Both the position numbers and the translations under genes were made by a program. The notes beneath the pieces are model-generated. The model had not been told where the DNA came from, did not search any database, and worked only from the letters and a program-made list of their open reading frames with translations. DNA of 64,000 nucleotides from Aplysia californica (taxonomy: Eukaryota). Shown here one piece after another: positions 322-33,012 of the stretch; positions within the stretch are counted from its first letter, which is position 1, and each line of letters starts with the position of its first letter. The stretch spans positions 684,438 through 748,437 of the forward strand of contig NW_004797465.1 in assembly GCF_000002075.1 (NCBI RefSeq). The letters are read 5' to 3'.

Positions 322-431
322 CCTTGAAGATCCTTTTGTTCTTGTATTTTTTGGACAGTTTGAATGGTTTATTCAATGTCAGAAGTTTTCCTCCAATCTT
401 TGCACATTTCTTTGAAGCACCAATAAAGTTC
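322..431 (-). CDS. C-type lectin domain exon 2: (E)NFIGASKKCAKIGGKLLTLNKPFKLSKKYKNKRIFK
   Basis: Acceptor TTTTTCTTTTTGTTCCACAG|G, donor AAGG|GTGAGT; 110 bp, phase 2-1; F..A...C...GG.L motif of CTLD helix 1. Confidence 0.8.
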
Positions 432-1400
432 CTGTGGAACAAAAAGAAAATTAGTAAGATGGTCAACAGCTGGCACAATCAATGTCTCTCAGCTTTCGTC
501 TTGGTGTCATGTTGATGCGATGCTGAATTTTGCGCAAACGACGGCTTATATTGCCACCAAAGTGAGAACAGTTCGAGGCCATACGTCCGTTTATCACGTG
601 CACCAGAAATTTAACTGAGGAATTTATATGGTGTCGCACACAGGTCGAAAAAAACCCAGGAAATCTTGCTAAAATTCCCCGAGGATTTCCGTGCTGCACG
701 TGGCGGTTTTGCCACTTTAGGAAGCTTTTCTGTGCGCACTGGTTACCCATTAACACTTTCAGAGCATAACATTTTGAAACATTCCTTGTGGTCTTTTTTC
801 GGATATTTTTAAAGATAGGGCTGTCCTTCAAGGTGGTCCTTAACTTATGATGAAGTCTATAGTTAAGTGTGTAAAGCGAATAGAGCTTTCTGTAGAGTGG
901 GTATATGCGCTTTACAAATNNNNNNNNNNNNNNNNNNNNNNNNNNNNNNNNNNNNNNNNNNNNNNNNNNNNNNNNNNNNNNNNNNNNNNNNNNNNNNNNN
1001 NNNNNNNNNNNNNNNNNNNNNNNNNNNNNNNNNNNNNNNNNNNNNNNNNNNNNNNNNNNNNNNNNNNNNNNNNNNNNNNGCCTCTTCTTCTTCTTATTTT
1101 TCTTCTTCTTCTTCTTCCTCTTCTTCTTCTTCTTCTTCCTTTGCCCTAATGAATTACACATGTGCTATTCTTACTCTTTTCCTCCTCTCTCGATGAAGAG
1201 ACAGCGACCACCGTGGGCTTTGAAGGGTTTGCTGCACTTGGCAGAGTCATCTGTCGAGAGCAATGGACGTAGGGTTGATGTAAAAATAAGACACGGTAAC
1301 AATAATCTACCACACTGGTAGCATGGGAAGTGATGGACATTGCACACATATGATAAACAATCATACTATCAATTAGTCTGTCTGCCTTATCCCCTCACCC

Positions 1401-1457
<57 letters not shown>

Positions 1458-4400
1458 CTTGCTCACAAACACGAAAGCACACAGACCTGTATACTCAATC
1501 AAAATCGTAAGATCATTATGAGTAATTATCAAGATATTCAAAGAATTGCATATTAAGTAAAAGCTTGAAATATTGTAAAACTCAAAATCTTCTGCGTCAA
1601 ACGTCTCAAAACTACGTACTCTGAGCAGATCAAACGTTGTAATTCTGAGGTAGCGTTCTTGGATTGGTTGGAAAAAGGTTGTGTTTTGAATAATAAACTG
1701 GATCTCTCCTAGTTTGAATAATTGAAAGATGCAAATTTTGGGAAGTGGGGCAAAAGTCAGGATTCCTTTGTGGCTTGTCTTACCTGGCTCATTGGGAGAA
1801 GAACCGGGTTTTCCTGAAGAAAAAAAGAAACACACGTGGATTGCTTTCGAAAAAGTACAGATGTAAAAGTCCACTTCAAAATGCTGTCATGATCATCATT
1901 ATCATCATCATTGTCAACATCATTATCGTTATAATCTTCAACAACATCACAGTCATTATCATCGCAGTTGTCATATTCGTTGTCACCATCATCATCAGAA
2001 TAAAGATAGACTCGGGTTCATCAAAAGATAAAAGGGNNNNNNNNNNNNNNNNNNNNNNNNNNNNNNNNNNNNNNNNNNNNNNNNNNNNNNNNNNNNNNNN
2101 NNNNNNNNNNNNNNNNNNNNNNNNNNNNNNNNNNNNNNNNNNNNNNNNNNNNNNNNNNNNNNNNNNNNNNNNNNNNNNNNNTCCATTTACAGATCTGTTA
2201 ATTTATCTCTCGGTCTCTCCATATTTCCACCTATTCATATATTAACCAGTTTCTCTCTTTAAATTTTAATGCGTTGTTAGCTTTCTAATTATCTGCCCTT
2301 CTACACTGACAACAGACAGACAGGCAAGANNNNNNNNNNNNNNNNNNNNNNNNNNNNNNNNNNNNNNNNNNNNNNNNNNNNNNNNNNNNNNNNNNNNNNN
2401 NNNNNNNNNNNNNNNNNNNNNNNNNNNNNNNNNNNNNNNNNNNNNNNNNNNNNNNNNNNNNNNNNATCTGGCCATAAAAATTTGTTATACATATACATTA
2501 TACAAACTATTATGTTTCACATAGACACGTGCCCATTAATTTTTAAATTGTGATATCTTTAGGAACGAAATGCGCATTGAGCATTTTTTAAAATAGAAAA
2601 TAGAANNNNNNNNNNNNNNNNNNNNNNNNNNNNNNNNNNNNNNNNNNNNNNNNNNNNNNNNNNNNNNNNNNNNNNNNNNNNNNNNNNNNNNNNNNNNNNN
2701 NNNNNNNNNNNNNNNNNNNNNNNNNNNNNNNNNNNNNNNNNNNNNNNNNNNNNNNNAAAACTCAGAGACAGATGCAACAAAATGTGACCCATACACAGGG
2801 TAGAGCTTTACCTTTGTCATAGCAGACTTCGAATTCTCCTTTGCAACCACCAGATACCCAGACCATCGGCCCATCAAAACCGTACGTGGCATCAAACTGG
2901 CAGCGACGTCTTGCAGCACGGTCCTTGGGTTTCTTACTCTCCACGAGTTCCATCTTGGTGACACGGATAGCTCTATCGATGATTCTTGAGTTGAACTTGG
3001 AACCTTTGCTTTTCAGTTTCTTTTTCTTACACACATTATCAGTCTCTGAAGAAATAAAAATGAGAAAAATGGAGACGTAACATGTGAAACAATAAACCAT
3101 GTCAAACAGCTCTCCTCGCGATAAAATCGCTCACTTGTTCAATGTCAGTGAAGGAACAGTGTCGGGAAGATACTGTCAGCAGATGGTGACCCGCACGCAC
3201 GGAAGTAACGGGCTGGAAACGCGTGCGAGCAACAGCAACAGATGCGCTCAAGAAAAGACACTTGTTCAAAACTGACACAGGTGGTGAGAGAGCCGAGATG
3301 CTCACTCATAGTATGACAAATATACCGGGCTGATTTGTACACGGTGGACAATTTCAGCTGTATTGCAGTAGATCAATTGGTTTGCTTAACAATTAGTCGT
3401 GAGGGGGTGGGGCATGGGCGTGGGGATGGCGTTTTTAAAACAGAACATGAGTACCAAATTATTGTGGAAATGGGTAGCGAGAGAGATATTGGTGGGCACG
3501 CCATGTATTGCCATTGTTTTGCATTCAGACTATAAAGGAAACGTAACCAACCTTGGGCGATTTTTGTCAGGGTTGCATTTTGCAGCCACCAATTCTTTGG
3601 CCAGGCATTTGCTTTATTTTTGCATTTTGATGTAGTTTACATTATAATAATATTTAGGTTTGGAGGTTAAGATTTATAACTTTACCACCAAAATGCATAT
3701 TGATCTTCACGGCCAAAAATTATTGGTAGCATGGAGTCGTTTGAAACCAAATGCATTGCAGGATGTTGGTTTATTTCTAATTTCTAACGGTTTTTTTTCT
3801 TTTTTGGTTAGTTTCATCCTGCAGAGAAGCACAACTATTCTGGAGACATAAGAGCACCCATACCTATAAAAACCAGACCATTAGTTTTAATACGTGTTAC
3901 AAACGCTTCAACACATACCAAAGCGGTTTTTCAGTAAACTGCATTAATTTCCAGCGCTTAACAGAAACTGAAGAAAAGAAAGCAGTTATCATCATTCGTA
4001 TTTTACTCAACCTAATACAGTAAAAGAGTTGGCACAGAAAATTTTTTTTAGATCGGAAGGAAGAGTTACCATTGAAAGAATTAAAAGAAAAAAAAATTAG
4101 TCCAATTGTTTTTTCGTCTCGGTGTTTTTAGATTTACCCCTTTATTGGCAGATCCAACGGAATGACATTTCAAACGAACAGATAAAGGGTGTCCTTAACA
4201 GATAACAGGTTTTGGGATTTAGAGGGTTATTTTAAACTTTGGATATAAGCTCAAATGGTTTAGATCTGGATTGCATTCACCATAATGCGGAATAAACAGC
4301 CACTGAATATTTGGCGTAAAATTCTCGACAGGGTAGGGATCATAATCAATCTATAAAAACTGTCTCTGACATTTTTGTTTTTAAAAAGAAATTTAGTGAA

Positions 4401-7400
4401 AACAAACCTTTTTCTTTTGGCTTGTAGCAAACTTTGAATACTGCAAAGCAGTTGTTCTTCACCCAGGCCTTCTTTCCTTTAAAGCCAAAGGATTTATTCT
4501 TCTTGCACTTGCCCTTAGACTTTTCCTTCACCACCTTCATAGACTGGATTTTCTTGGCCTTTGAAAGTGTTTTCTGGTCTTTCTTTTTGTTTTTGCTTCG
4601 AAGTTGTAAATTTTGGCACTTATCTTCATCCTCATCTGAGAAAAAAGCGTATGTAAAAATGAATAGTGCTGGATACATCAACACATAACGTATATTCCTT
4701 TTAAAAGACTGGCCAACAGCTTTGATACTTATTACGACATTAAAATGTTAAACAAAACTTGCTCTTTTATGGTCAGGATTTAAACCACGTTTCTTGCCCT
4801 CAGCAGACCTAAAGACAAGAAAAGATTATCATCACACGTCATTTACACCCCCTTAGTGTTGTTCGAAACAACATTCATTGAACGATGTTGGTTTATTCAT
4901 TTTTTTCCTTCAATTTTTGGGTGGTTTTTATTCTGCAAAGAACTGCAAATTATGTTCTGAAGAGCGCATTTTGAAAAATACCTGAGAAGTGTTGGCATCG
5001 ACGAAAAAAAATGCTCCAAAAAATCATAACGCAATGTCAGGAATTACAAACGACAAAAATCATAGCCATTTTAACCAATAACTAAGGAGGCAAAAATTAA
5101 ACCTTTATCGCCAACAGTAACGTGAAAGAAAATTATAGGTAGAGAAAATGAGTCTAGACTTATTCGAAGAACAGAAGGAGGTAGTACTTAAGAACGACGA
5201 TATGTGTTACGACACAGTGGAATGAGGAACTCATCACATTTTGGATAAATGGTAAAATTAAGTACAATAAAGCTGATATTACAATATTATTGTTCTCAGG
5301 TTGGTATTTGAAATCCAGGGAGCAAAAGGGAAATAAATCAGGAATTTGTCTTTTTTATTTGAAACTTTGGATATGCATTCATATGGTTTAGTTATGGATT
5401 GATTCCAACACGATGCGGGGAAGAAAGCAAGTCACTGAATAACTCACAACATTCAATTAAACTAAAATAGTTAGAAGGATCGTTACAAGGGCTACATTTC
5501 TTTCTACACAGACTTAAGTTAAAACAAACCTTCATTGGGTTTTGGCTTGTAGCAAACTTTGAATACTGCACGGCAGTTGTTCTTCACCCAGACCTTCCTT
5601 CCTTTATAGCCAAAGGATTTATTCTTCTTGCATTTGCCCTTTGACAGTTCTTTCTTCATCTTCATTGACATGATTTTCTTGGCCTTTGAAAGAGTTTTCT
5701 GGTTTTTCTTTTTGTTTTTGCTTTCAAGTTGCAACGTTTTGCAATTATCTTCATTATCTTCTGAGAAAAAAAAAGTATAACAAATTATTAGTCCTCGATA
5801 CATCAGTACATAACGTACACATCCATTAAAAATCTGGCCAATAGATTTTCTATGTGCAACGACAGTTTGAAGTAAAACAAAGTGTTTCTTTTTCGGTCAA
5901 AGTGTAAATCACATTTCTAGCCCTTTAAAATACTAAAGATAAGATAGGAGTTATCATATATTATTCAACCTTATACTTGAGAAGAGTTGACATTGAAAAC
6001 AAAAATGTTTCTAAAAGATAGAAATAAACATCACCAATTATATGAGACAAAAATAATTTTTTAACCTTTTTTAAAACGGAGGTATTTATACGCCGCCATC
6101 AAAACAGTTTAGAAAGCTGGCTTTTAACCTAGCTGAGGGGTATACAATATCCCAGGAGTACGACCTGACTAAGAATTTTCTTCCCCTTTTAGTAATCAAA
6201 CTCAGGTCGCCAGCGTACAGCGGCAAAGCGCCTAAATGACATTCCACAGACACGGGTCAAAAATCATTGCCACAGTAATTACTAACTCGACAAAACCCGA
6301 ACCTTTCATGGCAACATTTTATACTTTTAAATGTTGGTGATCGACACGATATTTTGTTTAGATTATTTGGGAGGCGGGCTTCAATCCTGCCTACCAAGGC
6401 CAACTGGGATGGAGAGGGATACAACAGAAAGCAGAAAGACCGAATATACTCGATAAAAAATTCGCCCCAGTCGGGAATCAAAGTCATGACTCCTGCGTGC
6501 GACAGCGGTACGCCTTATCGCTACATCACGGCCCGGACACCAATATGATATAAGGCATTAACCATAGAGAGGCCTAGAAAGAAAGCAATTGTAAGGTGTG
6601 TTTAAATAACGGTTGGGGCGGGGTGAGTGCCCTTTAGAATTACACAGAATATCATTATATTATATTTTTGTACATTTTTTTTCTAAACAGAAAATAATAG
6701 GAGTATTAAATGCAGGAAGCAAAAGAAAACAGGTTTAGGGATTAGAATACGCACTAAAAATGTTTAGATTTGGGTTACAGCCGTCACAACACGGAGACAT
6801 AGGCAAATCATTGAATAACTGGGACACAATGTTATGACCGTGCAAACGAGATGAACAAACTGTAAGGATTGTCTCTGATAGGTGAGCCTTATTTTGTTTT
6901 TTGCTAAGACTCAAGTAAAAACAAACCTTTATCGCCTTTTGGCTTGTAGCAAACTTTGAATACTGCTCTGCAGTTGTTCTTCACCCAGGCCTTCCTTCCT
7001 TTATAGCCAAAGGATTTATTCTTCTTGCACTTGCCCTTTGACAATTCTTTCTTCATCTTCATAGACTTAATTTTCTTGGCCTCTGAAAGAGTTTTCTGGT
7101 CTTTCTTTTTGTTTTTGCTTTGGAGTTGTAAAGTTTTGCATTTTCCTTTACTCTCATCTGAGAAAGAAAACAGACAAAATAAATGTACCGGAGACATAAG
7201 CACATTACGCACACACCTAAGTAAAGGCTGGCCAATACTTTTGATCCGTTCTACAAGAGTTAAGATGAAACAAAGTATGTTTTTTTACTGTCAAACGCAA
7301 ACCACATTTTCGGCCCTCTAAAGACAGGAAGACAAAAATGGATTTGCCACCATGCATATTTTACTTAATCAAGTACTTGAGAAGAGTTGGCATCGTTGTA

Positions 7401-10400
7401 TTTGCACGAGTTTTACGCCGCTCGCAACTGCATAATGGCATTATATGAGCGCGCGAAACACAAGTTGGTTGCATTGACAACAGTTCACTGCAGGGCTGGG
7501 CTCGGGTCAATAATCAAATTTTAAAATGTTAGAATATAAAAATTTGGTGTAAATATATTTCAAACTTTAAACAACTTTTTAAAATAACATAAACATTTTA
7601 AACAATTTTATTTCATTTTACAATTTCCCATAACGGCCTTAATAAAATCCAGAACTCTGCTGGGATCAACGACGGAAAACAGACTTTCCAATTTTTTGCA
7701 TTTAAAATATTTCCTTCGGGTCTCTCCGAAGTCTAGACATTCGGTTAAAATGTGTCTAATGGTAAACTCTGTGCATCCGACACATAACGGCTTCTCATCT
7801 CTCTGAGGGAGGTATTTATGAGTTAGGGCCGTGTGTCCGATGCGTAATCGAGTAAAAATGACTTCGTCTCTTCTGGAGAGGCCCGAAGGATCTTGCGGTC
7901 CCAGCTTGGGCTTCATGTTGTAAAGTTTATTGTTTGTTCGTTTTTTCCAATGGGAATTGGCATCGAGGAAAACATGTTTCCAAAATGGGAAAGCAATGTC
8001 ATTGTTGCAAACAGTAGCAATTATGGCCTTTGTAACAAATCAGTAACTCGGCAAAGAGGAAACCCTTAATGTCAACTACTGGACAACTATCAAAGAGAGG
8101 CACATAAAGAAAACTATTATATAACGTATAAAAAGACCAGATGGAATCTGTCCGTAAAGAAGACAATATAATTTAAATTTTCTCTATTTTTCGAATCCAA
8201 AAAATAAGTATGTGAAAAGCAGAGAGTAAAAGGGAACAGGTTCAGGGACTTTTATTTTACTATAAACTTCGGCTTTGTACTCAAATGGTTTAGATCTGGA
8301 TTGCAACCCCCACAATTCATAGAAGAAAGTAAGTCAAATGAAAAGTGGCGCAAAATTTATGACAGTGCAGACGAGATGAACAAGCTATAATTAATATTGT
8401 CTAGGGTAGGTGAGCTGCATGTCTATTCACAAAGAATCATGTGAGAACAAACCTTCATCGGCGTTTGGCCCGAAACAAACTTTGAATACTGCATGACAGT
8501 TGTTCTTCACCCAGGCCTTCCTTCCTTTATAGCCAAAGGATTCACCTTTCTTGCATTTGCCTTTAGACAATTTTTCGATCATCTTCATAGACTTGATTTT
8601 CTTGGTCTTTGAAAGAGTTTTCTTGTCTTTCTTTTTGTTTTTGCTTTTGAGTGTTACAGTTTTGCAATTATCTTCATCCTCACCTGAGAAAACAACACAG
8701 GTAAATGTACTGAAGACATCAGCCCATAACATTGATAACCTGCCCAATACTTTTGATATAGACACGTGTTACAAGAGTTAGAGTAAAGCTTTTTTGTTGC
8801 CGCAAAGGTTTAAACCACATTTCAAGCGGTCTAAAAAAAGAAAAGTTTCGATATAAAAAAGCTATCATGTTGCGTATTTTACTCAATTTTTTACTTTAAA
8901 AGGCGCTGGAAGGATTGACTCGGATGTGTCTATTAAAAACGCAAGAGTATGTTTTTTTTTTCATGATCAAGACAAAATCATTGAATCTAAATATATTATT
9001 TTGCACTGTAGACGCAAGTGGTTTTAACTTCATTTAAATATTTTAAATTGAATTCTTATGAAGATTTACAGTCGAAAAAAAAATATTTTGAAAAACAAAA
9101 TCTGAAGGCAGTGGCACCAACCACCGAAATGTACCACTACTATTTCCAAAGGAGACAATGCCTCAATAGTCAAACGTTAAAACAATAGTAATTTAAGGAG
9201 AGGCGATAGTAAAGAGAGTTTAAGATTGATAAAGAGTGTACAAAGAGAGTATTGAAAGAAAAGCTGAAAGTTGCCCTTATTGAAGAAAGATTATTTATTT
9301 AAGGATTTATTTCCGACCTAAAAATCTACGTAAAATACGGTGAGCCATAAAAAAAACAAGGAAGAAAGTAATTTAATAAAATAAAATAGTTCTGGTGCAA
9401 AATTCAGGAGATAGCACAAAAGACTTAGATGCTGGAAGGAATGATTCTGATAGATTATTTTGCATAATAGATCTAGAAAAAGGTGGTTTTAACATCATTT
9501 GCATTTTGTAAACCGAATCCTTTTGAAGATTTACAATCGAAAAAAAAATATTTCTGAAACAAAATCTGAAGGCAGTAGCACCAATTACCGAAAGTACCCC
9601 TACTATTTCCAAAGAAGACAAAGGCTCAATGGTCAAACGCAAAAACAACCGTGTTTTAAGGAGAGGCGATAGTAAATAGAGTTTCCGAATCCATAGGAAG
9701 ATTTACATTCGAAAAATATATATTTCCAAAACAAAATCTGAAGGCAGTGGCACCTACCACTGAGAAGTACCGCTACTATTTCCAAAACAGACAATGCCTC
9801 ACTGGTCAAACGTAAAGACAATCGTGGTTTTAGGAGAGATGATAGTAAAGAGAGTTTAAGATTGATAAAGAGTGTACAATGTATTGAAAGAAAAGCTGGA
9901 AGTTGGCCTTACTAAAGACAGATTATTTATTTAAGGATTTTTTTTCCGACCTAAAAATCTACGTAAAATGCGGTGAGGCGTGAAAAAATAAGGAAGAAAG
10001 TACTTCATAAAAATAGAGTTCTTCTGGTGCAAAATTCACGAGATAGCATAAAAGATTTAGAAGTTGGAAGAAATGATTCTAATAGATTAGTAGCTGCATC
10101 GTTTTCCAAGAATTTAAAAACAACAACACCCCAACAAACCTTTATCGCCTTTTGGCTTGTAGCAAACTTTGAATACTGCACGGCAGTTATTCTTCACCCA
10201 GGCCTTCTTTCCTTTAAAGCCAAAGGATTTGTTCTTCTTGCACTTGCCCTTTGACTTTTCTTCTTTCATCTTCATAGACTTGATTTTCTTGGCCTTTGAA
10301 AGAGTCTTCTGATCTTTCTTTTTGTTTTTGCTTTCAAGTGTTATAGATTTGCATTTCTCTTTACCGCCCTCGTTGTCATCGTCGTCGTCTGAAGAAATAT

Positions 10401-13400
10401 CGAGAAAAAATATACTGGAGACATCGGCACCTAACAAAAATACCCTTTTAAAAGTTGACCAACTATTTTGGCTTTTGTATGAAGTACGCAAGAGTATGGT
10501 TTTTTTACGATCAAGACAAAATCGATATTTCATAGAATCTAAATAGATTATTGTGCACTATACATCTAGACAAAAGTGGTTTTAACATCATTTGCATGTT
10601 GTAAACCGAATCCTTTTGAAGATTTACAATCGAAAAAAATATATTTCTGAAACAAAATCTGAAGACAGTGGCACCAATTACCGAAAGTACCCCTACTATT
10701 TCCAAAGAAGACAAAGGCTCAATGGTCAAACGAAAAAACAACCGTGCTTTAAGGAGATGCGATAGTAAATAGAGTTTCCGAATCCTTAGGAAGATTTACA
10801 ATCGAAAAATATATATTTCCAAAACAAAATCTGAAGGCAGTGGCACCTACCACTGAGAAGTACCGCTACTATTTCCAAAATAGACAATGCCTCACTGGTC
10901 AAACGTAAAGACAATCGTGGTTTTAGGAGAGACGATAGTAAAGAGAGTTTAAGATTGATAAAGAGTGTACAATGTATTGAAAGAAAAGCTGGAAGTTGGC
11001 CTTACTGAAGACAGATTATTGATTTAAGAATTTATTTTCCGAGCTAAAAATCTACGCAAAATGCGGTGAGGCCTGAGAAAACAAGGAAAAAAGTACTTCA
11101 TAAAAATAGAGTTCTTCTGGAGCAAAATTCACGAGATAGCATAAAAGATGTAGAAGTTGGAAGAAATGATTCTGATAGATTAGTAGCTGCATCGTTTTCC
11201 AAGAATTTAAAAACAACAACACCCCAACAAACCTTTATCGCCTTTTGGCTTGTAGCAAACTTTGAATACTGCACGGCAGTTATTCTTCACCCAGGCCTTC
11301 TTTCCTTTAAAGCCAAAGGATTTGTTCTTCTTGCACTTGCCCTTTGACTTTTCTTCTTTCATCTTCATAGACTTGATTTTCTTGGCCTTTGAAAGAGTCT
11401 TCTGATCTTTCTTTTTGTTTTTGCTTTCAAGTGTTATAGATTTGCATTTCTCTTTACCGCCCTCGTCGTCGTCGTCGTCGTCGTCTGAAGAAATATCGAG
11501 AAAAATTATACTGGAGACATCGGCACCTAACAGAAAAACCCTATTAAAAGTTGACCAACTATTTTGGCTTTTGTATGAAGTACGCAAAAGTATGTTTTTT
11601 TTACGATCAAGACAAAATCGATATTTCATAGAATCTAAATAGATTATTGTGCACTATAGATCTAGACAAAAGTGGTTTTAACATAATTTGCATGTTGTAA
11701 ACCGAATCCTTTTGAAGATTTACAATCGAAAAAAAATAATTTCCAAAACAAAATCTGAAGGCAGTGGCACCTACCACTGAGAAGTACCGCTACTATTTCC
11801 AAAATAGACAATGCCTCACTGGTCAAACGTAAAGACAATCGTGGTTTTAGGAGAGACGATAGTAAAGAGAGTTTAAGATTGATAAAGAGTGTACAATGTA
11901 TTGAAAGAAAAGCTGGAAGTTGGCCTTACTGAAGACAGATTATTGATTTAAGAATTTATTTTCCGAGCTAAAAATCTACGCAAAATGCGGTGAGGCCTGA
12001 GAAAACAAGGAAAAAAGTACTTCATAAAAATAGAGTTCTTCTGGAGCAAAATTCACGAGATAGCATAAAAGATGTAGAAGTTGGAAGAAATGATTCTGAT
12101 AGATTAGTAGCTGCATCGTTTTCCAAGAATTTAAAAACAACAACACCCCAACAAACCTTTATCGCCTTTTGGCTTGTAGCAAACTTTGAATACTGCACGG
12201 CAGTTATTCTTCACCCAGGCCTTCTTTCCTTTAAAGCCAAAGGATTTGTTCTTCTTGCACTTGCCCTTTGACTTTTCTTCTTTCATCTTCATAGACTTGA
12301 TTTTCTTGGCCTTTGAAAGAGTCTTCTGATCTTTCTTTTTGTTTTTGCTTTCAAGTGTTATAGATTTGCATTTCTCTTTACCGCCCTCGTCGTCGTCGTC
12401 GTCGTCGTCGTCTGAAGAAATATCGAGAAAAATTATACTGGAGACATCGGCACCTAACAGAAAAACCCTTTTAAAAGTTGACCAACTATTTTGGCTTTTG
12501 TATGAAGTACGCAAAAGTATGGTTTTTTTACGATCAAGACAAAATCGATATTTCATAGAATCTAAATAGATTATTGTGCACTATAGATCTAGACAAAAGT
12601 GGTTTTAACATCATTTGCATGTTGTAAACCGAATCCTTTTGAAGATTTACAATCGAAAAAAAAATATTTCTGAAACAAAATCTGAAGGCAGTGGCACCAA
12701 TTACCGAAAGTACCCCTACTATTTCCAGAGAAGACAAAGGCTCAATGGTCAAACGAAAAAACAACCGTAATTTAAGGAGATGCGATAGTAAATAGAGTTT
12801 CCGAATCCTTAGGAAGATTTACAATCGAAAAATATATATTTCCAAAACAAAATCTGAAGGCAGTGGCACCTACCACTGAGAAGTACCGCTACTATTTCCA
12901 AAATAGACAATGCCTCACTGGTCAAACGTAAAGACAATCGTGGTTTTAGGAGAGACGATAGTAAAGAGAGTTTAAGATTGATAAAGAGTGTACAATGTAT
13001 TGAAAGAAAAGCTGGAAGTTGGCCTTACTGAAGACAGATTATTGATTTAAGAATTTATTTTCCGAGCTAAAAATCTACGCAAAATGCGGTGAGGCCTGAG
13101 AAAACAAGGAAAAAAGTACTTCATAAAAATAGAGTTCTTCTGGAGCAAAATTCACGAGATAGCATAAAAGATGTAGAAGTTGGAAGAAATGATTCTGATA
13201 GATTAGTAGCTGCATCGTTTTCCAAGAATTTAAAAACAACAACACCCCAACAAACCTTTATCGCCTTTTGGCTTGTAGCAAACTTTGAATACTGCACGGC
13301 AGTTATTCTTCACCCAGGCCTTCTTTCCTTTAAAGCCAAAGGATTTGTTCTTCTTGCACTTGCCCTTTGACTTTTCTTCTTTCATCTTCATAGACTTGAT

Positions 13401-16400
13401 TTTCTTGGCCTTTGAAAGAGTCTTCTGATCTTTCTTTTTGTTTTTGCTTTCAAGTGTTATAGATTTGCATTTCTCTTTACCGCCCTCGTCGTCGTCGTCG
13501 TCGTCGTCGTCTGAAGAAATATCGAGAAAAATTATACTGGAGACATCGGCACCTAACAGAAAAACCCTTTTAAAAGTTGACCAACTATTTTGGCTTTTGT
13601 ATGAAGTACGCAAAAGTATGGTTTTTTTACGATCAAGACAAAATCGATATTTCATAGAATCTAAATAGATTATTGTGCACTATAGATCTAGACAAAAGTG
13701 GTTTTAACATCATTTGCATGTTGTAAACCGAATCCTTTTGAAGATTTACAATCGAAAAAAAAATATTTCTGAAACAAAATCTGAAGGCAGTGGCACCAAT
13801 TACCGAAAGTACCCCTACTATTTCCAGAGAAGACAAAGGCTCAATGGTCAAACGAAAAAACAACCGTAATTTAAGGAGATGCGATAGTAAATAGAGTTTC
13901 CGAATCCTTAGGAAGATTTACAATCGAAAAATATATATTTCCAAAACAAAATCTGAAGGCAGTGGCACCTACCACTGAGAAGTACCGCTACTATTTCCAA
14001 AATAGACAATGCCTCACTGGTCAAACGTAAAGACAATCGTGGTTTTAGGAGAGACGATAGTAAAGAGAGTTTAAGATTGATAAAGAGTGTACAATGTATT
14101 GAAAGAAAAGCTGGAAGTTGGCCTTACTGAAGACAGATTATTGATTTAAGAATTTATTTTCCGAGCTAAAAATCTACGCAAAATGCGGTGAGGCCTGAGA
14201 AAACAAGGAAAAAAGTACTTCATAAAAATAGAGTTCTTCTGGAGCAAAATTCACGAGAGAGCATAAAAGATGTAGAAGTTGGAAGAAATGATTCTGATAG
14301 ATTAGTAACTGCATCGTTTTCCAAGAATTTAAAAACAACAACACCCCAACAAACCTTTATCGCCTTTTGGCTTGTAGCAAACTTTGAATACTGCACGGCA
14401 GTTATTCTTCACCCAGGCCTTCTTTCCTTTAAAGCCAAAGGATTTGTTCTTCTTGCACTTGCCCTTTGACTTTTCTTCTTTCATCTTCATAGACTTGATT
14501 TTCTTGGCCTTTGAAAGAGTCTTCTGATCTTTCTTTTTGTTTTTGCTTTCAAGTGTTATAGATTTGCATTTCTCTTTACCGCCCTCGTCGTCGTCGTCGT
14601 CGTCGTCTGAAGAAATATCGAGAAAAATTATACTGGAGACATCGGCACCTAACAGAAAAACCCTTTTAAAAGTTGACCAACTATTTTGGCTTTTGTATGA
14701 AGTACGCAAAAGTATGGTTTTTTTACGATCAAGACAAAATCGATATTTCATAGAATCTAAATAGATTATTGTGCACTATAGATCTAGACAAAAGTGGTTT
14801 TAACATCATTTGCATGTTGTAAACCGAATCCTTTTGAAGATTTACAATCGAAAAAAAAATATTTCTGAAACAAAATCTGAAGGCAGTGGCACCAATTACC
14901 GAAAGTACCCCTACTATTTCCAGAGAAGACAAAGGCTCAATGGTCAAACGAAAAAACAACCGTAATTTAAGGAGATGCGATAGTAAATAGAGTTTCCGAA
15001 TCCTTAGGAAGATTTACAATCGAAAAATATATATTTCCAAAACAAAATCTGAAGGCAGTGGCACCTACCACTGAGAAGTACCGCTACTATTTCCAAAATA
15101 GACAATGCCTCACTGGTCAAACGTAAAGACAATCGTGGTTTTAGGAGAGACGATAGTAAAGAGAGTTTAAGATTGATAAAGAGTGTACAATGTATTGAAA
15201 GAAAAGCTGGAAGTTGGCCTTACTGAAGACAGATTATTGATTTAAGAATTTATTTTCCGAGCTAAAAATCTACGCAAAATGCGGTGAGGCCTGAGAAAAC
15301 AAGGAAAAAAGTACTTCATAAAAATAGAGTTCTTCTGGAGCAAAATTCACGAGAGAGCATAAAAGATGTAGAAGTTGGAAGAAATGATTCTGATAGATTA
15401 GTAACTGCATCGTTTTCCAAGAATTTAAAAACAACAACACCCCAACAAACCTTTATCGCCTTTTGGCTTGTAGCAAACTTTGAATACTGCACGGCAGTTA
15501 TTCTTCACCCAGGCCTTCTTTCCTTTAAAGCCAAAGGATTTGTTCTTCTTGCACTTGCCCTTTGACTTTTCTTCTTTCATCTTCATAGACTTGATTTTCT
15601 TGGCCTTTGAAAGAGTCTTCTGATCTTTCTTTTTGTTTTTGCTTTCAAGTGTTATAGATTTGCATTTCTCTTTACCGCCCTCGTCGTCGTCGTCGTCGTC
15701 GTCTGAAGAAATATCGAGAAAAATTATACTGGAGACATCGGCACCTAACAGAAAAACCCTTTTAAAAGTTGACCAACTATTTTGGCTTTTGTATGAAGTA
15801 CGCAAAAGTATGGTTTTTTTACGATCAAGACAAAATCGATATTTCATAGAATCTAAATAGATTATTGTGCACTATAGATCTAGACAAAAGTGGTTTTAAC
15901 ATCATTTGCATGTTGTAAACCGAATCCTTTTGAAGATTTACAATCGAAAAAAAAATATTTCTGAAACAAAATCTGAAGGCAGTGGCACCAATTACCGAAA
16001 GTACCCCTACTATTTCCAGAGAAGACAAAGGCTCAATGGTCAAACGAAAAAACAACCGTCATTTAAGGAGATGCGATAGTAAATAGAGTTTCCGAATCCT
16101 TAGGAAGATTTACAATCGAAAAATATATATTTCCAAAACAAAATCTGAAGGCAGTGGCACCTACCACTGAGAAGTACCGCTACTATTTCCAAAATAGACA
16201 ATGCCTCACTGGTCAAACGTAAAGACAATCGTGGTTTTAGGAGAGACGATAGTAAAGAGAGTTTAAGATTGATAAAGAGTGTACAATGTATTGAAAGAAA
16301 AGCTGGAAGTTGGCCTTACTGAAGACAGATTAATGATTTAAGAATTTATTTTCCGAGCTAAAAATCTACGCAAAATGCGGTGAGGCCTGAGAAAACAAGG

Positions 16401-19400
16401 AAAAAAGTACTTCATAAAAATAGAGTTCTTCTGGAGCAAAATTCACGAGATAGCATAAAAGATGTAGAAGTTGGAAGAAATGATTCTGATAGATTAGTAG
16501 CTGCATCGTTTTCCAAGAATTTAAAAACAACAACACCCCAACAAACCTTTATCGCCTTTTGGCTTGTAGCAAACTTTGAATACTGCACGGCAGTTATTCT
16601 TCACCCAGGCCTTCTTTCCTTTAAAGCCAAAGGATTTGTTCTTCTTGCACTTGCCCTTTGACTTTTCTTCTTTCATCTTCATAGACTTGATTTTCTTGGC
16701 CTTTGAAAGAGTCTTCTGATCTTTCTTTTTGTTTTTGCTTTCAAGTGTTATAGATTTGCATTTCTCTTTACCGCCCTCGTCGTCGTCGTCGTCGTCGTCT
16801 GAAGAAATATCGAGAAAAATTATACTGGAGACATCGGCACCTAACAGAAAAACCCTTTTAAAAGTTGACCAACTATTTTGGCTTTTGTATGAAGTACGCA
16901 AAAGTATGGTTTTTTTACGATCAAGACAAAATCGATATTTCATAGAATCTAAATAGATTATTGTGCACTATAGATCTAGACAAAAGTGGTTTTAACATCA
17001 TTTGCATGTTGTAAACCGAATCCTTTTGAAGATTTACAATCGAAAAAAAAATATTTCTGAAACAAAATCTGAAGGCAGTGGCACCAATTACCGAAAGTAC
17101 CCCTACTATTTCCAGAGAAGACAAAGGCTCAATGGTCAAACGAAAAAACAACCGTCATTTAAGGAGATGCGATAGTAAATAGAGTTTCCGAATCCTTAGG
17201 AAGATTTACAATCGAAAAATATATATTTCCAAAACAAAATCTGAAGGCAGTGGCACCTACCACTGAGAAGTACCGCTACTATTTCCAAAATAGACAATGC
17301 CTCACTGGTCAAACGTAAAGACAATCGTGGTTTTAGGAGAGACGATAGTAAAGAGAGTTTAAGATTGATAAAGAGTGTACAATGTATTGAAAGAAAAGCT
17401 GGAAGTTGGCCTTACTGAAGACAGATTAATGATTTAAGAATTTATTTTCCGAGCTAAAAATCTACGCAAAATGCGGTGAGGCCTGAGAAAACAAGGAAAA
17501 AAGTACTTCATAAAAATAGAGTTCTTCTGGAGCAAAATTCACGAGATAGCATAAAAGATGTAGAAGTTGGAAGAAATGATTCTGATAGATTAGTAGCTGC
17601 ATCGTTTTCCAAGAATTTAAAAACAACAACACCCCAACAAACCTTTATCGCCTTTTGGCTTGTAGCAAACTTTGAATACTGCACGGCAGTTATTCTTCAC
17701 CCAGGCCTTCTTTCCTTTAAAGCCAAAGGATTTGTTCTTCTTGCACTTGCCCTTTGACTTTTCTTCTTTCATCTTCATAGACTTGATTTTCTTGGCCTTT
17801 GAAAGAGTCTTCTGATCTTTCTTTTTGTTTTTGCTTTCAAGTGTTATAGATTTGCATTTCTCTTTACCGCCCTCGTCGTCGTCGTCGTCGTCGTCTGAAG
17901 AAATATCGAGAAAAATTATACTGGAGACATCGGCACCTAACAGAAAAACCCTTTTAAAAGTTGACCAACTATTTTGGCTTTTGTATGAAGTACGCAAAAG
18001 TATGGTTTTTTTACGATCAAGACAAAATCGATATTTCATAGAATCTAAATAGATTATTGTGCACTATAGATCTAGACAAAAGTGGTTTTAACATCATTTG
18101 CATGTTGTAAACCGAATCCTTTTGAAGATTTACAATCGAAAAAAAATAATTTCCAAAACAAAATCTGAAGGCAGTGGCACCTACCACTGAGAAGTACCGC
18201 TACTATTTCCAAAATAGACAATGCCTCACTGGTCAAACGTAAAGACAATCGTGGTTTTAGGAGAGACGATAGTAAAGAGAGTTTAAGATTGATAAAGAGT
18301 GTACAATGTATTGAAAGAAAAGCTGGAAGTTGGCCTTACTGAAGACAGATTAATGATTTAAGAATTTATTTTCCGAGCTAAAAATCTACGCAAAATGCGG
18401 TGAGGCCTGAGAAAACAAGGAAAAAAGTACTTCATAAAAATAGAGTTCTTCTGGAGCAAAATTCACGAGATAGCATAAAAGATGTAGAAGTTGGAAGAAA
18501 TGATTCTGATAGATTAGTAGCTGCATCGTTTTCCAAGAATTTAAAAACAACAACACCCCAACAAACCTTTATCGCCTTTTGGCTTGTAGCAAACTTTGAA
18601 TACTGCACGGCAGTTATTCTTCACCCAGGCCTTCTTTCCTTTAAAGCCAAAGGATTTGTTCTTCTTGCACTTGCCCTTTGACTTTTCTTCTTTCATCTTC
18701 ATAGACTTGATTTTCTTGGCCTTTGAAAGAGTCTTCTGATCTTTCTTTTTGTTTTTGCTTTCAAGTGTTATAGATTTGCATTTCTCTTTACCGCCCTCGT
18801 CGTCGTCGTCGTCGTCGTCTGAAGAAATATCGAGAAAAATTATACTGGAGACATCGGCACCTAACAGAAAAACCCTATTAAAAGTTGACCAACTATTTTG
18901 GCTTTTGTATGAAGTACGCAAAAGTATGTTTTTTTTACGATCAAGACAAAATCGATATTTCATAGAATCTAAATAGATTATTGTGCACTATAGATCTAGA
19001 CAAAAGTGGTTTTAACATCATTTGCATGTTGTAAACCGAATCCTTTTGAAGATTTACAATCGAAAAAAAAATATTTCTGAAACAAAATCTGAAGGCAGTG
19101 GCACCAATTACCGAAAGTACCCCTACTATTTCCAGAGAAGACAAAGGCTCAATGGTCAAACGAAAAAACAACCGTCATTTAAGGAGATGCGATAGTAAAT
19201 AGAGTTTCCGAATCCTTAGGAAGATTTACAATCGAAAAATATATATTTCCAAAACAAAATCTGAAGGCAGTGGCACCTACCACTGAGAAGTACCGCTACT
19301 ATTTCCAAAATAGACAATGCCTCACTGGTCAAACGTAAAGACAATCGTGGTTTTAGGAGAGACGATAGTAAAGAGAGTTTAAGATTGATAAAGAGTGTAC

Positions 19401-22400
19401 AATGTATTGAAAGAAAAGCTGGAAGTTGGCCTTACTGAAGACAGATTAATGATTTAAGAATTTATTTTCCGAGCTAAAAATCTACGCAAAATGCGGTGAG
19501 GCCTGAGAAAACAAGGAAAAAAGTACTTCATAAAAATAGAGTTCTTCTGGAGCAAAATTCACGAGATAGCATAAAAGATGTAGAAGTTGGAAGAAATGAT
19601 TCTGATAGATTAGTAGCTGCATCGTTTTCCAAGAATTTAAAAACAACAACACCCCAACAAACCTTTATCGCCTTTTGGCTTGTAGCAAACTTTGAATACT
19701 GCACGGCAGTTATTCTTCACCCAGGCCTTCTTTCCTTTAAAGCCAAAGGATTTGTTCTTCTTGCACTTGCCCTTTGACTTTTCTTCTTTCATCTTCATAG
19801 ACTTGATTTTCTTGGCCTTTGAAAGAGTCTTCTGATCTTTCTTTTTGTTTTTGCTTTCAAGTGTTATAGATTTGCATTTCTCTTTACCGCCCTCGTCGTC
19901 GTCGTCGTCGTCGTCTGAAGAAATATCGAGAAAAATTATACTGGAGACATCGGCACCTAACAGAAAAACCCTTTTAAAAGTTGACCAACTATTTTGGCTT
20001 TTGTATGAAGTACGCAAAAGTATGGTTTTTTTACGATCAAGACAAAATCGATATTTCATAGAATCTAAATAGATTATTGTGCACTATAGATCTAGACAAA
20101 AGTGGTTTTAACATCATTTGCATGTTGTAAACCGAATCCTTTTGAAGATTTACAATCGAAAAAAAAATATTTCTGAAACAAAATCTGAAGGCAGTGGCAC
20201 CAATTACCGAAAGTACCCCTACTATTTCCAGAGAAGACAAAGGCTCAATGGTCAAACGAAAAAACAACCGTCATTTAAGGAGATGCGATAGTAAATAGAG
20301 TTTCCGAATCCTTAGGAAGATTTACAATCGAAAAATATATATTTCCAAAACAAAATCTGAAGGCAGTGGCACCTACCACTGAGAAGTACCGCTACTATTT
20401 CCAAAATAGACAATGCCTCACTGGTCAAACGTAAAGACAATCGTGGTTTTAGGAGAGACGATAGTAAAGAGAGTTTAAGATTGATAAAGAGTGTACAATG
20501 TATTGAAAGAAAAGCTGGAAGTTGGCCTTACTGAAGACAGATTAATGATTTAAGAATTTATTTTCCGAGCTAAAAATCTACGCAAAATGCGGTGAGGCCT
20601 GAGAAAACAAGGAAAAAAGTACTTCATAAAAATAGAGTTCTTCTGGAGCAAAATTCACGAGATAGCATAAAAGATGTAGAAGTTGGAAGAAATGATTCTG
20701 ATAGATTAGTAGCTGCATCGTTTTCCAAGAATTTAAAAACAACAACACCCCAACAAACCTTTATCGCCTTTTGGCTTGTAGCAAACTTTGAATACTGCAC
20801 GGCAGTTATTCTTCACCCAGGCCTTCTTTCCTTTAAAGCCAAAGGATTTGTTCTTCTTGCACTTGCCCTTTGACTTTTCTTCTTTCATCTTCATAGACTT
20901 GATTTTCTTGGCCTTTGAAAGAGTCTTCTGATCTTTCTTTTTGTTTTTGCTTTCAAGTGTTATAGATTTGCATTTCTCTTTACCGCCCTCGTCGTCGTCG
21001 TCGTCGTCGTCTGAAGAAATATCGAGAAAAATTATACTGGAGACATCGGCACCTAACAGAAAAACCCTATTAAAAGTTGACCAACTATTTTGGCTTTTGT
21101 ATGAAGTACGCAAAAGTATGTTTTTTTTACGATCAAGACAAAATCGATATTTCATAGAATCTAAATAGATTATTGTGCACTATAGATCTAGACAAAAGTG
21201 GTTTTAACATCATTTGCATGTTGTAAACCGAATCCTTTTGAAGATTTACAATCGAAAAAAAATAATTTCCAAAACAAAATCTGAAGGCAGTGGCACCTAC
21301 CACTGAGAAGTACCGCTACTATTTCCAAAATAGACAATGCCTCACTGGTCAAACGTAAAGACAATCGTGGTTTTAGGAGAGACGATAGTAAAGAGAGTTT
21401 AAGATTGATAAAGAGTGTACAATGTATTGAAAGAAAAGCTGGAAGTTGGCCTTACTGAAGACAGATTAATGATTTAAGAATTTATTTTCCGAGCTAAAAA
21501 TCTACGCAAAATGCGGTGAGGCCTGAGAAAACAAGGAAAAAAGTACTTCATAAAAATAGAGTTCTTCTGGAGCAAAATTCACGAGATAGCATAAAAGATG
21601 TAGAAGTTGGAAGAAATGATTCTGATAGATTAGTAGCTGCATCGTTTTCCAAGAATTTAAAAACAACAACACCCCAACAAACCTTTATCGCCTTTTGGCT
21701 TGTAGCAAACTTTGAATACTGCACGGCAGTTATTCTTCACCCAGGCCTTCTTTCCTTTAAAGCCAAAGGATTTGTTCTTCTTGCACTTGCCCTTTGACTT
21801 TTCTTCTTTCATCTTCATAGACTTGATTTTCTTGGCCTTTGAAAGAGTCTTCTGATCTTTCTTTTTGTTTTTGCTTTCAAGTGTTATAGATTTGCATTTC
21901 TCTTTACCGCCCTCGTCGTCGTCGTCGTCGTCGTCTGAAGAAATATCGAGAAAAATTATACTGGAGACATCGGCACCTAACAGAAAAACCCTATTAAAAG
22001 TTGACCAACTATTTTGGCTTTTGTATGAAGTACGCAAAAGTATGTTTTTTTTACGATCAAGACAAAATCGATATTTCATAGAATCTAAATAGATTATTGT
22101 GCACTATAGATCTAGACAAAAGTGGTTTTAACATCATTTGCATGTTGTAAACCGAATCCTTTTGAAGATTTACAATCGAAAAAAAAATATTTCTGAAACA
22201 AAATCTGAAGGCAGTGGCACCAATTACCGAAAGTACCCCTACTATTTCCAGAGAAGACAAAGGCTCAATGGTCAAACGAAAAAACAACCGTCATTTAAGG
22301 AGATGCGATAGTAAATAGAGTTTCCGAATCCTTAGGAAGATTTACAATCGAAAAATATATATTTCCAAAACAAAATCTGAAGGCAGTGGCACCTACCACT

Positions 22401-25400
22401 GAGAAGTACCGCTACTATTTCCAAAATAGACAATGCCTCACTGGTCAAACGTAAAGACAATCGTGGTTTTAGGAGAGACGATAGTAAAGAGAGTTTAAGA
22501 TTGATAAAGAGTGTACAATGTATTGAAAGAAAAGCTGGAAGTTGGCCTTACTGAAGACAGATTAATGATTTAAGAATTTATTTTCCGAGCTAAAAATCTA
22601 CGCAAAATGCGGTGAGGCCTGAGAAAACAAGGAAAAAAGTACTTCATAAAAATAGAGTTCTTCTGGAGCAAAATTCACGAGATAGCATAAAAGATGTAGA
22701 AGTTGGAAGAAATGATTCTGATAGATTAGTAGCTGCATCGTTTTCCAAGAATTTAAAAACAACAACACCCCAACAAACCTTTATCGCCTTTTGGCTTGTA
22801 GCAAACTTTGAATACTGCACGGCAGTTATTCTTCACCCAGGCCTTCTTTCCTTTAAAGCCAAAGGATTTGTTCTTCTTGCACTTGCCCTTTGACTTTTCT
22901 TCTTTCATCTTCATAGACTTGATTTTCTTGGCCTTTGAAAGAGTCTTCTGATCTTTCTTTTTGTTTTTGCTTTCAAGTGTTATAGATTTGCATTTCTCTT
23001 TACCGCCCTCGTCGTCGTCGTCGTCGTCGTCTGAAGAAATATCGAGAAAAATTATACTGGAGACATCGGCACCTAACAGAAAAACCCTATTAAAAGTTGA
23101 CCAACTATTTTGGCTTTTGTATGAAGTACGCAAAAGTATGTTTTTTTTACGATCAAGACAAAATCGATATTTCATAGAATCTAAATAGATTATTGTGCAC
23201 TATAGATCTAGACAAAAGTGGTTTTAACATCATTTGCATGTTGTAAACCGAATCCTTTTGAAGATTTACAATCGAAAAAAAATAATTTCCAAAACAAAAT
23301 CTGAAGGCAGTGGCACCTACCACTGAGAAGTACCGCTACTATTTCCAAAATAGACAATGCCTCACTGGTCAAACGTAAAGACAATCGTGGTTTTAGGAGA
23401 GACGATAGTAAAGAGAGTTTAAGATTGATAAAGAGTGTACAATGTATTGAAAGAAAAGCTGGAAGTTGGCCTTACTGAAGACAGATTATTGATTTAAGAA
23501 TTTATTTTCCGAGCTAAAAATCTACGCAAAATGCGGTGAGGCCTGAGAAAACAAGGAAAAAAGTACCTCATAAAAATAGAGTTCTTCTGGAGCAAAATTC
23601 ACGAGATAGCATAAAAGATGTAGAAGTTGGAAGAAATGATTCTGATAGATTAGTAGCTGCATCGTTTTCCAAGAATTTAAAAACAACAACACCCCAACAA
23701 ACCTTTATCGCCTTTTGGCTTGTAGCAAACTTTGAATACTGCACGGCAGTTATTCTTCACCCAGGCCTTCTTTCCTTTAAAGCCAAAGGATTTGTTCTTC
23801 TTGCACTTGCCCTTTGACTTTTCTTCTTTCATCTTCATAGACTTGATTTTCTTGGCCTTTGAAAGAGTCTTCTGATCTTTCTTTTTGTTTTTGCTTTCAA
23901 GTGTTATAGATTTGCATTTCTCTTTACCGCCCTCGTCGTCGTCGTCGTCGTCGTCTGAAGAAATATCGAGAAAAATTATACTGGAGACATCGGCACCTAA
24001 CAGAAAAACCCTATTAAAAGTTGACCAACTATTTTGGCTTTTGTATGAAGTACGCAAAAGTATGTTTTTTTTACGATCAAGACAAAATCGATATTTCATA
24101 GAATCTAAATAGATTATTGTGCACTATAGATCTAGACAAAAGTGGTTTTAACATCATTTGCATGTTGTAAACCGAATCCTTTTGAAGATTTACAATCGAA
24201 AAAAAATAATTTCCAAAACAAAATCTGAAGGCAGTGGCACCTACCACTGAGAAGTACCGCTACTATTTCCAAAATAGACAATGCCTCACTGGTCAAACGT
24301 AAAGACAATCGTGGTTTTAGGAGAGACGATAGTAAAGAGAGTTTAAGATTGATAAAGAGTGTACAATGTATTGAAAGAAAAGCTGGAAGTTGGCCTTACT
24401 GAAGACAGATTATTGATTTAAGAATTTATTTTCCGAGCTAAAAATCTACGCAAAATGCGGTGAGGCCTGAGAAAACAAGGAAAAAAGTACCTCATAAAAA
24501 TAGAGTTCTTCTGGAGCAAAATTCACGAGATAGCATAAAAGATGTAGAAGTTGGAAGAAATGATTCTGATAGATTAGTAGCTGCATCGTTTTCCAAGAAT
24601 TTAAAAACAACAACACCCCAACAAACCTTTATCGCCTTTTGGCTTGTAGCAAACTTTGAATACTGCACGGCAGTTATTCTTCACCCAGGCCTTCTTTCCT
24701 TTAAAGCCAAAGGATTTGTTCTTCTTGCACTTGCCCTTTGACTTTTCTTCTTTCATCTTCATAGACTTGATTTTCTTGGCCTTTGAAAGAGTCTTCTGAT
24801 CTTTCTTTTTGTTTTTGCTTTCAAGTGTTATAGATTTGCATTTCTCTTTACCGCCCTCGTCGTCGTCGTCGTCGTCTGAAGAAATATCGAGAAAAATTAT
24901 ACTGGAGACATCGGCACCTAACAGAAAAACCCTTTTAAAAGTTGACCAACTATTTTGGCTTTTGTATGAAGTACGCAAAAGTATGGTTTTTTTACGATCA
25001 AGACAAAATCGATATTTCATAGAATCTAAATAGATTATTGTGCACTATAGATCTAGACAAAAGTGGTTTTAACATCATTTGCATGTTGTAAACCGAATCC
25101 TTTTGAAGATTTACAATCGAAAAAAAAATATTTCTGAAACAAAATCTGAAGGCAGTGGCACCAATTACCGAAAGTACCCCTACTATTTCCAGAGAAGACA
25201 AAGGCTCAATGGTCAAACGAAAAAACAACCGTCATTTAAGGAGATGCGATAGTAAATAGAGTTTCCGAATCCTTAGGAAGATTTACAATCGAAAAATATA
25301 TATTTCCAAAACAAAATCTGAAGGCAGTGGCACCTACCACTGAGAAGTACCGCTACTATTTCCAAAATAGACAATGCCTCACTGGTCAAACGTAAAGACA

Positions 25401-32976: not shown

Positions 32977-33012
<36 letters not shown>

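What the first reader, a model, noticed from the sequence alone, without database searches (positions are those of the whole stretch)
322..1250. Hidden C-type lectin domain spliced onto the end of the repeat chain
Seen: exons 1175-1250 (phase 1-2) and 322-431 (phase 2-1) have near-consensus splice sites and join to DDSAKCSKPFKAHGGRCLFIERGGKENFIGASKKCAKIGGKLLTL. This joined peptide is not visible in the ORF track. Established: it fits the long-form CTLD N-terminus (CPxGW...GGxCY...W..A...C...GGxL). Inference: two unrelated lectin folds are fused; this CTLD is also Lys-rich and may anchor or cross-link the chain. The WIG and EPN/QPD exons should lie left of the window.
Basis: partly seen in the sequence, partly recalled or inferred. 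Interest (0 to 1): 0.72.

Follow-up and report, generated by a model that had tools for sequence, protein, structure and literature searches.

The report
Giant cationic lectin-repeat mucus protein gene
The two hidden exons are real and spliced, but they start an internal, atypical C-type-lectin-like domain of a giant gastropod gene that joins about 110 lysine-rich egg-lectin-type repeats to a mucin-like core, so it likely encodes a secreted gel or glue protein rather than a sugar-binding end cap.

Summary
Observation confirmed; interpretation partly right. Exons 1175-1250 and 322-431 splice as described (junction in 4 of 4 laid runs). A 30-nt micro-exon (1784-1813), not in the finding, links them to the last DUF3011 exon. 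One contig runs from the repeat array through this domain into WxxW (CysD) and VWD exons left of the window. So the fusion is real, but the domain is not terminal: about 2,800 residues follow (three VWD units, three more C-type-lectin-like domains, EGF, a cystine-knot-like end). The expected WIG reads F-L-I-G-G. The 297 unseen nt equal paralog exons 3+4, and 0 of 9 paralogous copies have EPN/QPD or WND, so calcium-dependent sugar binding is unlikely. A paralog has the same DUF3011, micro-exon, CTLD junction. Closest known: limpet pedal-mucus protein P-vulgata_1 and flatworm adhesive Mlig-ap1. I found the DUF3011-array version in no paper or protein examined. Tissue and function are untested.

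The parts
322..431 (-). CTLD1 exon 2 (110 nt, phase 2-1): first helix Cys and GGKLL
   Evidence: sequence; spliced contigs in 4 of 4 runs; 10 paralogous exons elsewhere in the genome
1175..1250 (-). CTLD1 exon 1 (76 nt, phase 1-2): long-form N-terminal Cys pair
   Evidence: paralogs have a 67-nt phase 1-2 exon
1784..1813 (-). 30-nt phase 1-1 linker micro-exon, not in the finding
   Evidence: joints 1250/1784 (4 of 4 runs) and 1812/2811 (2 of 4); 27-nt candidate counterpart in the C80 paralog
2812..3045 (-). last, divergent DUF3011-like repeat exon
   Evidence: Pfam DUF3011 22.1 bits, E 1.6e-4, below the cut-off of 25; 72 bits on a unit HMM from database proteins; all-beta model, pLDDT 86.9; on the same contig as CTLD1
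4408..4635 (-). intact-looking repeat exon, skipped in the X4 contig
   Evidence: the loose end upstream of 3045 does not match this exon's end
5530..5760 (-). intact-looking repeat exon, skipped in the X4 contig
   Evidence: its ORF scores 35 bits on DUF3011
6927..7157 (-). nearest repeat exon whose end matches the loose end joined to exon 2812-3045 (19 others up to 31123 match equally)
4408..63734 (-). 59 intact phase 1-1 DUF3011-like exons inside the window (acidic linker plus Lys-rich 4-Cys domain); the array continues right of the window
   Evidence: 110 intact of 120 hits over the whole array

Best explanation
The two exons are spliced and begin the first of four C-type-lectin-like domains inside a very large gene that likely encodes a secreted gel- or glue-forming protein. 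Shown by spliced contigs: repeat exon, micro-exon, CTLD1, WxxW, linker, first VWD exons on one contig. Read from the genome: candidate signal peptide, about 112 intact DUF3011-like exons, then CTLD1-WxxW-VWD-C8-like-TIL-EGF-CTLD2-CTLD3-WxxW-EGF-VWD-C8-TIL-CTLD4-EGF-VWD-like-short Pro-rich stretch-TIL-EGFs-cystine-knot-like end (about 12,400 aa if every intact exon were used). Inferred mechanism: the core would polymerise like other VWD/cystine-knot proteins and self-cleave at its two GDPH motifs. The cationic DUF3011 arm (net +16 per 100 residues) would bind acidic polysaccharides or the acidic C-terminal region (-14 per 100) of other chains. CTLD1 likely serves as a calcium-independent, basic protein-interaction module between arm and core, not as a sugar-binding anchor.
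For: Spliced contigs: X4 record (1850 nt, depth 933.4) covers window 2811-3047, 1174-1250 and 321-430 and L001 7955-8073, 7194-7400, 6422-6587, 5141-5281. The X5 record (6915 nt) has exactly the same upstream length (776 = 297+110+76+30+234+29). Unseen part is 297 nt = paralog exons of 154+143 nt. Loose ends read F-L-I-G-G and Y-N-F-I-C-E-Q, matching paralog FIGG/LIGG and ICEQ. Pfam over cut-off on downstream exons: Mucin2_WxxW, VWD, TIL, C8, EGF; Lectin_C below cut-off on CTLD3 and CTLD4 exons. No EPN/QPD/WND in 9 of 9 paralogous CTLD1 copies or in own CTLD2-4. GDPH in VWD1 and VWD2 (PMC10880436 abstract). Charge gradient. Analogues: P-vulgata_1 (vWFD x2, CTL, EGF x6, cystine knot, Kazal x3; pedal-sole glands; PMC7333891 passages); Mlig-ap1 (KR-rich regions plus CTL-VWD-C8-TIL-EGF; cohesion blocked by polyanions; PMC6410801 passages); DUF3011 lectin AKL binds galacturonic acid (PMC5484111 passages).
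Against: No tissue, protein or binding data. The laid contigs are only guessed to be RNA by the tool. The gene's own CTLD1 exons 3-4 are not visible, so the missing sugar site is inferred from paralogs (about 40-50% identical in neighbouring exons). Junctions beyond the first VWD exons, the signal-peptide exon and all junctions inside the array were not tested by reads. At least two intact array exons are skipped in X4, so the protein may be much shorter. Pfam found nothing on the third VWD, Kazal-like or cystine-knot-like exons. No ortholog was retrieved from another named species.
Confidence: 0.6

Rival explanations
1. One reading: a terminal, calcium-dependent lectin domain that anchors or cross-links the repeat chain through sugar.
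For: Long-form CTLD N-terminus on the same transcript; the gene's own loop exons are unseen.
Against: The transcript continues into WxxW and VWD exons; no Trp at the WIG position; 0 of 9 paralogous copies have EPN/QPD/WND.
Confidence: 0.06
2. Same architecture, but specifically an egg-mass (capsule or cordon) scaffold from the reproductive glands rather than foot or skin mucus.
For: The only characterised DUF3011 protein is an egg lectin cloned from albumen gland (PMC5484111 passages); a multi-DUF3011 Elysia protein is named capsulin by its source; contig depth differs strongly between runs (933 and 561 versus under 9; 1 raw read in X21), although contig depth is a poor measure of expression.
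Against: The closest core architecture is a foot-gland protein (PMC7333891 passages); the tissues of the coded runs are unknown; the capsulin paper was not held.
Confidence: 0.3
3. The genomic array overstates the protein: transcripts use only a subset of the phase 1-1 exons, or the copy number is inflated in the assembly, giving a moderately long arm of variable length.
For: Exons 4408-4635 and 5530-5760 are skipped in X4; 10 of 120 copies are broken and must be skipped; many copies are identical and the array holds N stretches; the paralog shows only 7 repeats.
Against: 110 of 120 copies keep frame, cysteines and splice sites.
Confidence: 0.3
4. An innate-immune, microbe-trapping or cationic antimicrobial protein.
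For: Several lectin-like domains and a strong positive charge; lectins and mucins are mucus defence factors (PMC9334734 passages).
Against: Near-identical repeats give no recognition diversity; canonical sugar sites are absent; the VWD core points to a structural role.
Confidence: 0.1

Closest known systems
Limpet pedal-mucus protein P-vulgata_1 (PMC7333891; passages and a supplement search)
   Same: [quoted passage not shown]
   Different: Its 1854 aa lack a start codon; no DUF3011 or WxxW listed. Orthology not tested by sequence.
Flatworm adhesion protein Mlig-ap1 (PMC6410801, PMC8621496; passages)
   Same: Huge cationic repeat region joined to a CTL-VWD-C8-TIL-EGF core.
   Different: Its cationic part is low-complexity GRK/KR sequence at both ends; here it is an N-terminal array of folded, one-exon DUF3011 domains, and the core is much larger.
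DUF3011 lectins: AKL/ADEL (PMC5484111; passages) and multi-repeat sacoglossan proteins P0001, P0002
   Same: Same 4-Cys repeat of about 70 aa; secreted; tandem copies.
   Different: Repeat-only proteins: no Lectin_C or VWD in 22 of 22 scanned or in the 4 hits. They have 3 to about 26 repeats, with Thr/Pro linkers in the sacoglossan proteins, versus about 112 Lys-rich repeats with acidic linkers.
Gel-forming mucins MUC2/MUC5 and FCGBP (PMC4948705 passages; PMC10880436 abstract)
   Same: VWD-C8-TIL units, WxxW (CysD), GDPH motifs, Cys-rich C-terminus.
   Different: No three tandem N-terminal VWD units, no long PTS region; CTLDs and the DUF3011 array are extra.

Membership tests
C-type lectin-like domain (CTLD1) | Long-form N-terminal Cys pair, first-helix Cys and G-x-L | tested here: met
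   Joined peptide, 16.1 bits on a custom CTLD HMM, 0 of 1715 shuffles reach it
C-type lectin-like domain (CTLD1) | Pfam Lectin_C match | tested here: inconclusive
   No hit on single exons, own or paralog; the joined domain was not scanned against Pfam
C-type lectin-like domain (CTLD1) | WIG motif | tested here: not met
   F-L-I-G-G in the contig loose end; F-[FIL]-[FI]-G-G or Y-F-I-G-G in 9 paralogs. Core strand kept, Trp lost
C-type lectin-like domain (CTLD1) | C-terminal F-I-C closing the outer disulfide | tested here: met
   Loose end in X4 and X5 reads Y-N-F-I-C-E-Q
C-type lectin-like domain (CTLD1) | Inner Cys pair | tested here: inconclusive
   Present in 9 of 9 paralog exon 4 copies; own exon unseen
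Calcium-dependent C-type lectin | EPN or QPD plus WND (motifs recalled) | tested here: inconclusive
   Own loop exons unseen; absent in 9 of 9 paralogous copies and in own CTLD2-4
C-type lectin-like domain (CTLD1) | CTLD fold | not testable with these tools
   The domain spans four exons; no contiguous protein record was retrieved to fold
DUF3011 (PF11218) | Profile match | tested here: met
   35 bits for the 5519-5896 ORF; array exons over cut-off; exon 2812-3045 below cut-off at 22.1 bits
DUF3011 (PF11218) | Galacturonic-acid binding | not testable with these tools
   Shown only for AKL (PMC5484111 passages)
Gel-forming mucin | Three tandem N-terminal VWD-C8-TIL units | tested here: not met
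   Units are separated by CTLD, WxxW and EGF modules and follow the array
Gel-forming mucin | Long PTS domain | tested here: not met
   Only a Pro/Thr stretch of about 130 aa; array unit S+T+P 9.4%
Gel-forming mucin | WxxW (CysD) domain | tested here: met
   Mucin2_WxxW 32.5 bits
Gel-forming mucin | C-terminal cystine knot | tested here: inconclusive
   Cys pattern with CC and terminal C-x-C before the stop; no Pfam hit on the one exon scanned

The most novel reading that the evidence does not exclude
A gastropod family of giant mucin-like proteins in which an exon-amplified array of folded lectin domains takes the place of the glycosylated PTS region. This member would be a charge-polarised chain of up to about 12,000 residues (cationic lectin arm, acidic C-terminus) that gels by binding uronic or sulfated glycans and itself, with arm length tuned by skipping of phase 1-1 exons and a DUF3011 unit nested inside its second CTLD.
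Probability: 0.3. Interest if true: 0.68.

Novelty: new variant of a known kind. Interest (0 to 1): 0.43.

Why it matters
CTLD plus VWD multidomain secreted proteins are known from limpet and flatworm glues, so the fusion itself is not surprising. What appears new is the N-terminal arm of about 110 folded, lysine-rich DUF3011 domains, and that paralogs share one core while amplifying different N-terminal modules. If the function holds, it is a second, independent route to the 'polycation plus VWD core' design of flatworm glue and gives a testable role for DUF3011 beyond small egg lectins. Short-read gene models would likely miss or split such a gene.

Tried and rejected
Pfam on single CTLD1 exons and a PDB sequence search with exon 322-431: no hits. 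Atlas searches: Lectin_C clusters only at 0.83-0.86, leads only. Word-based protein searches with the last DUF3011 exon and a VWD exon found nothing; they covered only proteins up to 2000 aa, so this is weak. No RNA holder was listed on record for the stretch; raw PolyA run X21 gave 1 read on the stretch laid. Fold searches of the DUF3011 model: no Foldseek match at E up to 0.001; best VIA-align Z 5.5 (rmsd 2.7, 71 aligned, pyocin fibre) and 4.9 (rmsd 2.8, 68 aligned, H-type lectin), too weak to assign. Rejected: exon 322-431 as a terminal exon (read-through gives a stop after 50 more codons, but contigs splice at 322); separate transcripts (one contig spans both sides); an intronless genomic copy explaining the joints (only the self match is full length); the Asp-rich ORF 1757-2017 as an exon (skipped in the contigs). 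P-vulgata_1 orthology was not tested by sequence. Nine paper searches listed no paper that, in the listings or passages I saw, describes DUF3011 joined to CTLD or VWD; subscription papers, including the capsulin paper, are not held.

Full report
Observation. The window is G000:C195:684438-748437 of a 927-Mb animal genome. Named relatives of its repeat are heterobranch gastropods; earlier scan notes call the genome a sea hare (unchecked). On the minus strand, exons 1250-1175 and 431-322 have the phases and splice sites stated and give the peptide quoted. A 30-nt phase 1-1 micro-exon at 1813-1784, not in the finding, lies between them and the last repeat exon 3045-2812.

Splicing. Contigs of four runs were laid on 250-3100. 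The joint 430/1174 appears in 4 of 4, 1250/1784 in 4 of 4 and 1812/2811 in 2 of 4, all at GT..AG ends. The tool only guesses that these runs are RNA, but the genome holds no second full-length copy of the stretch searched. One X4 contig (1850 nt, depth 933.4) spans all four exons, and a contig of the same length and depth covers four exons left of the window: two WxxW exons, a Cys-rich linker and the first VWD exon. So the CTLD is on the repeat transcript and is internal.

The unseen half of the domain. The genome directly left of the window reads N. Contig positions put 297 nt between window 322 and the next visible exon. Paralogs have exons of 154 and 143 nt there. The loose ends read F-L-I-G-G at the start and Y-N-F-I-C-E-Q at the end, matching the paralogs. 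The domain is therefore complete, about 160 aa. It lacks the WIG tryptophan, and none of 9 paralogous copies (3 on C370, 6 on C80) has EPN, QPD or WND. The gene's own loop sequence was not seen, so loss of the sugar site is inferred.

Is it a CTLD? An HMM from the 30 best of 104 Lectin_C matches in this genome scores the visible 61 aa at 16.1 bits and two full paralog domains at 13.9 and 24.3; no shuffle reached these (best 7.1-7.5). The match covers the N-terminal strands and helix and the last strands; the middle region does not align. Pfam finds nothing on the single exons, and five intronic decoy pairings score as well as the true pair. It is a divergent CTLD-like domain, not a shown lectin.

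The whole gene. Upstream, 120 repeat copies were found from window 4.4 to 117.5 kb, 110 with an intact phase 1-1 exon, 59 of 59 inside the window; two divergent end exons make 112. A candidate signal-peptide exon lies at C195:819234-819180 (one of five hydrophobic candidates, untested). Downstream exons give Pfam WxxW, VWD, TIL, C8, EGF and weak Lectin_C matches (42 exons scanned, 19 with no family listed). Three more CTLDs score 17.8, 48.6 and 16.3 bits and none has EPN/QPD/WND. The gene ends in Cys-rich exons, a stop and an AATAAA about 57 kb left of the window. My exon model has a few unresolved boundaries. With all intact exons the protein would be about 12,400 aa (arithmetic from exon lengths). 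Net charge per 100 residues runs from +16 (array unit) and +25 (visible CTLD1) through 0 (VWD1) to -5, -6 and -14 near the C-terminus. VWD1 and VWD2 carry GDPH, an autocleavage motif (PMC10880436, abstract). CTLD2 contains a nested DUF3011-like unit (24.1 bits, best of 1844 scored shuffles 11.7), also present in both C80 paralogs.

Paralogs. C80 minus (139854-217734) has at least 7 non-Lys-rich DUF3011 exons, a candidate 27-nt micro-exon, CTLD1 and the same core in the same order. C80 plus and C370 instead repeat CTLD1-WxxW-linker units, some with VWD-C8-TIL; no DUF3011 exon was seen in the stretches fetched. So CTLD1 belongs to a conserved core and the N-terminal module is what gets amplified. 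The first two CTLD1 exons are basic in the paralog too (+19 per 100); the lysine bias is specific to this gene.

Array use. The loose end upstream of exon 3045 matches repeats ending in P-K-G-D-K (20 exons from 6927 to 31123), not the two adjacent exons 4408-4635 and 5530-5760. Either these are skipped or the sampled animal differs from the assembly. How many repeats a transcript carries is open.

Mechanism. Shown: splicing and linkage up to the first VWD exons. Inferred: secretion; polymerisation through VWD and cystine-knot-like domains as in mucins (PMC4948705 passages; mechanism recalled); a cationic arm of all-beta domains (model pLDDT 86.9; no clear fold match) binding acidic glycans, as the DUF3011 egg lectin AKL binds galacturonic acid (PMC5484111 passages), or the acidic tail of other chains; CTLD1 as a calcium-independent interaction module. 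Flatworm Mlig-ap1 pairs cationic repeats with a CTL-VWD-C8-TIL-EGF core and acts in cohesion (PMC6410801, PMC8621496 passages). Limpet P-vulgata_1 has a matching domain list and is made in foot-sole glands (PMC7333891 passages). Egg-mass scaffold is the main alternative.

Novelty. A phmmer search of 1.84 billion representatives gave 401 DUF3011-like proteins; I scanned 22 of the 150 listed, mainly the longest, and none had Lectin_C or VWD, nor did the 4 hits. Nine paper searches showed no such architecture; the capsulin paper was not held. Verdict: real, a new variant of VWD/CTLD mucus and adhesive proteins, not a gel-forming mucin by definition and not a shown lectin. Interest 0.43.

Noticed in passing
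window 4408-4635 and 5530-5760: Two intact repeat exons next to the end of the array are bypassed in the X4 contig; the X5 contig starts at the same offset. Exon skipping or a difference between animals.
   Followed up: partly
L002:4694-4846 and 5963-6036: A degenerate DUF3011-like unit lacking its outer Cys pair is nested inside CTLD2, also in both C80 paralogs.
   Followed up: partly
G000:C80:1-217734; C370:256000-289000; C329:500-5900: Paralogous giant genes; two on C80 face each other tail to tail, and some amplify CTLD1-WxxW-linker(-VWD-C8-TIL) units instead of DUF3011.
   Followed up: partly
window 10140-31123 and 33750-63734: The array has two homogenised zones: units of about 0.9-1.1 kb with one exon type, and 1.7-kb units with two alternating exon types; introns are near-identical too.
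   Followed up: no
C195, 93.7-117.5 kb in window coordinates (L011-L014): Ten broken repeat copies interspersed with intact ones near the 5' end of the array.
   Followed up: no
window 31302-32969 (+): Frameshifted reverse-transcriptase-like ORF fragments (LINE-like, recognised by eye) at the boundary between the two array zones.
   Followed up: no
L002:2963-2986, 4171-4200; L005:9793-9822: Further candidate micro-exons of 24-30 nt in the same gene.
   Followed up: no
G000 contigs C3, C27, C30, C32, C33, C155, C224, C244, C285, C296, C351, C417, C432, C454, C506, C656: Many other DUF3011 matches in this genome, a sizeable family.
   Followed up: no
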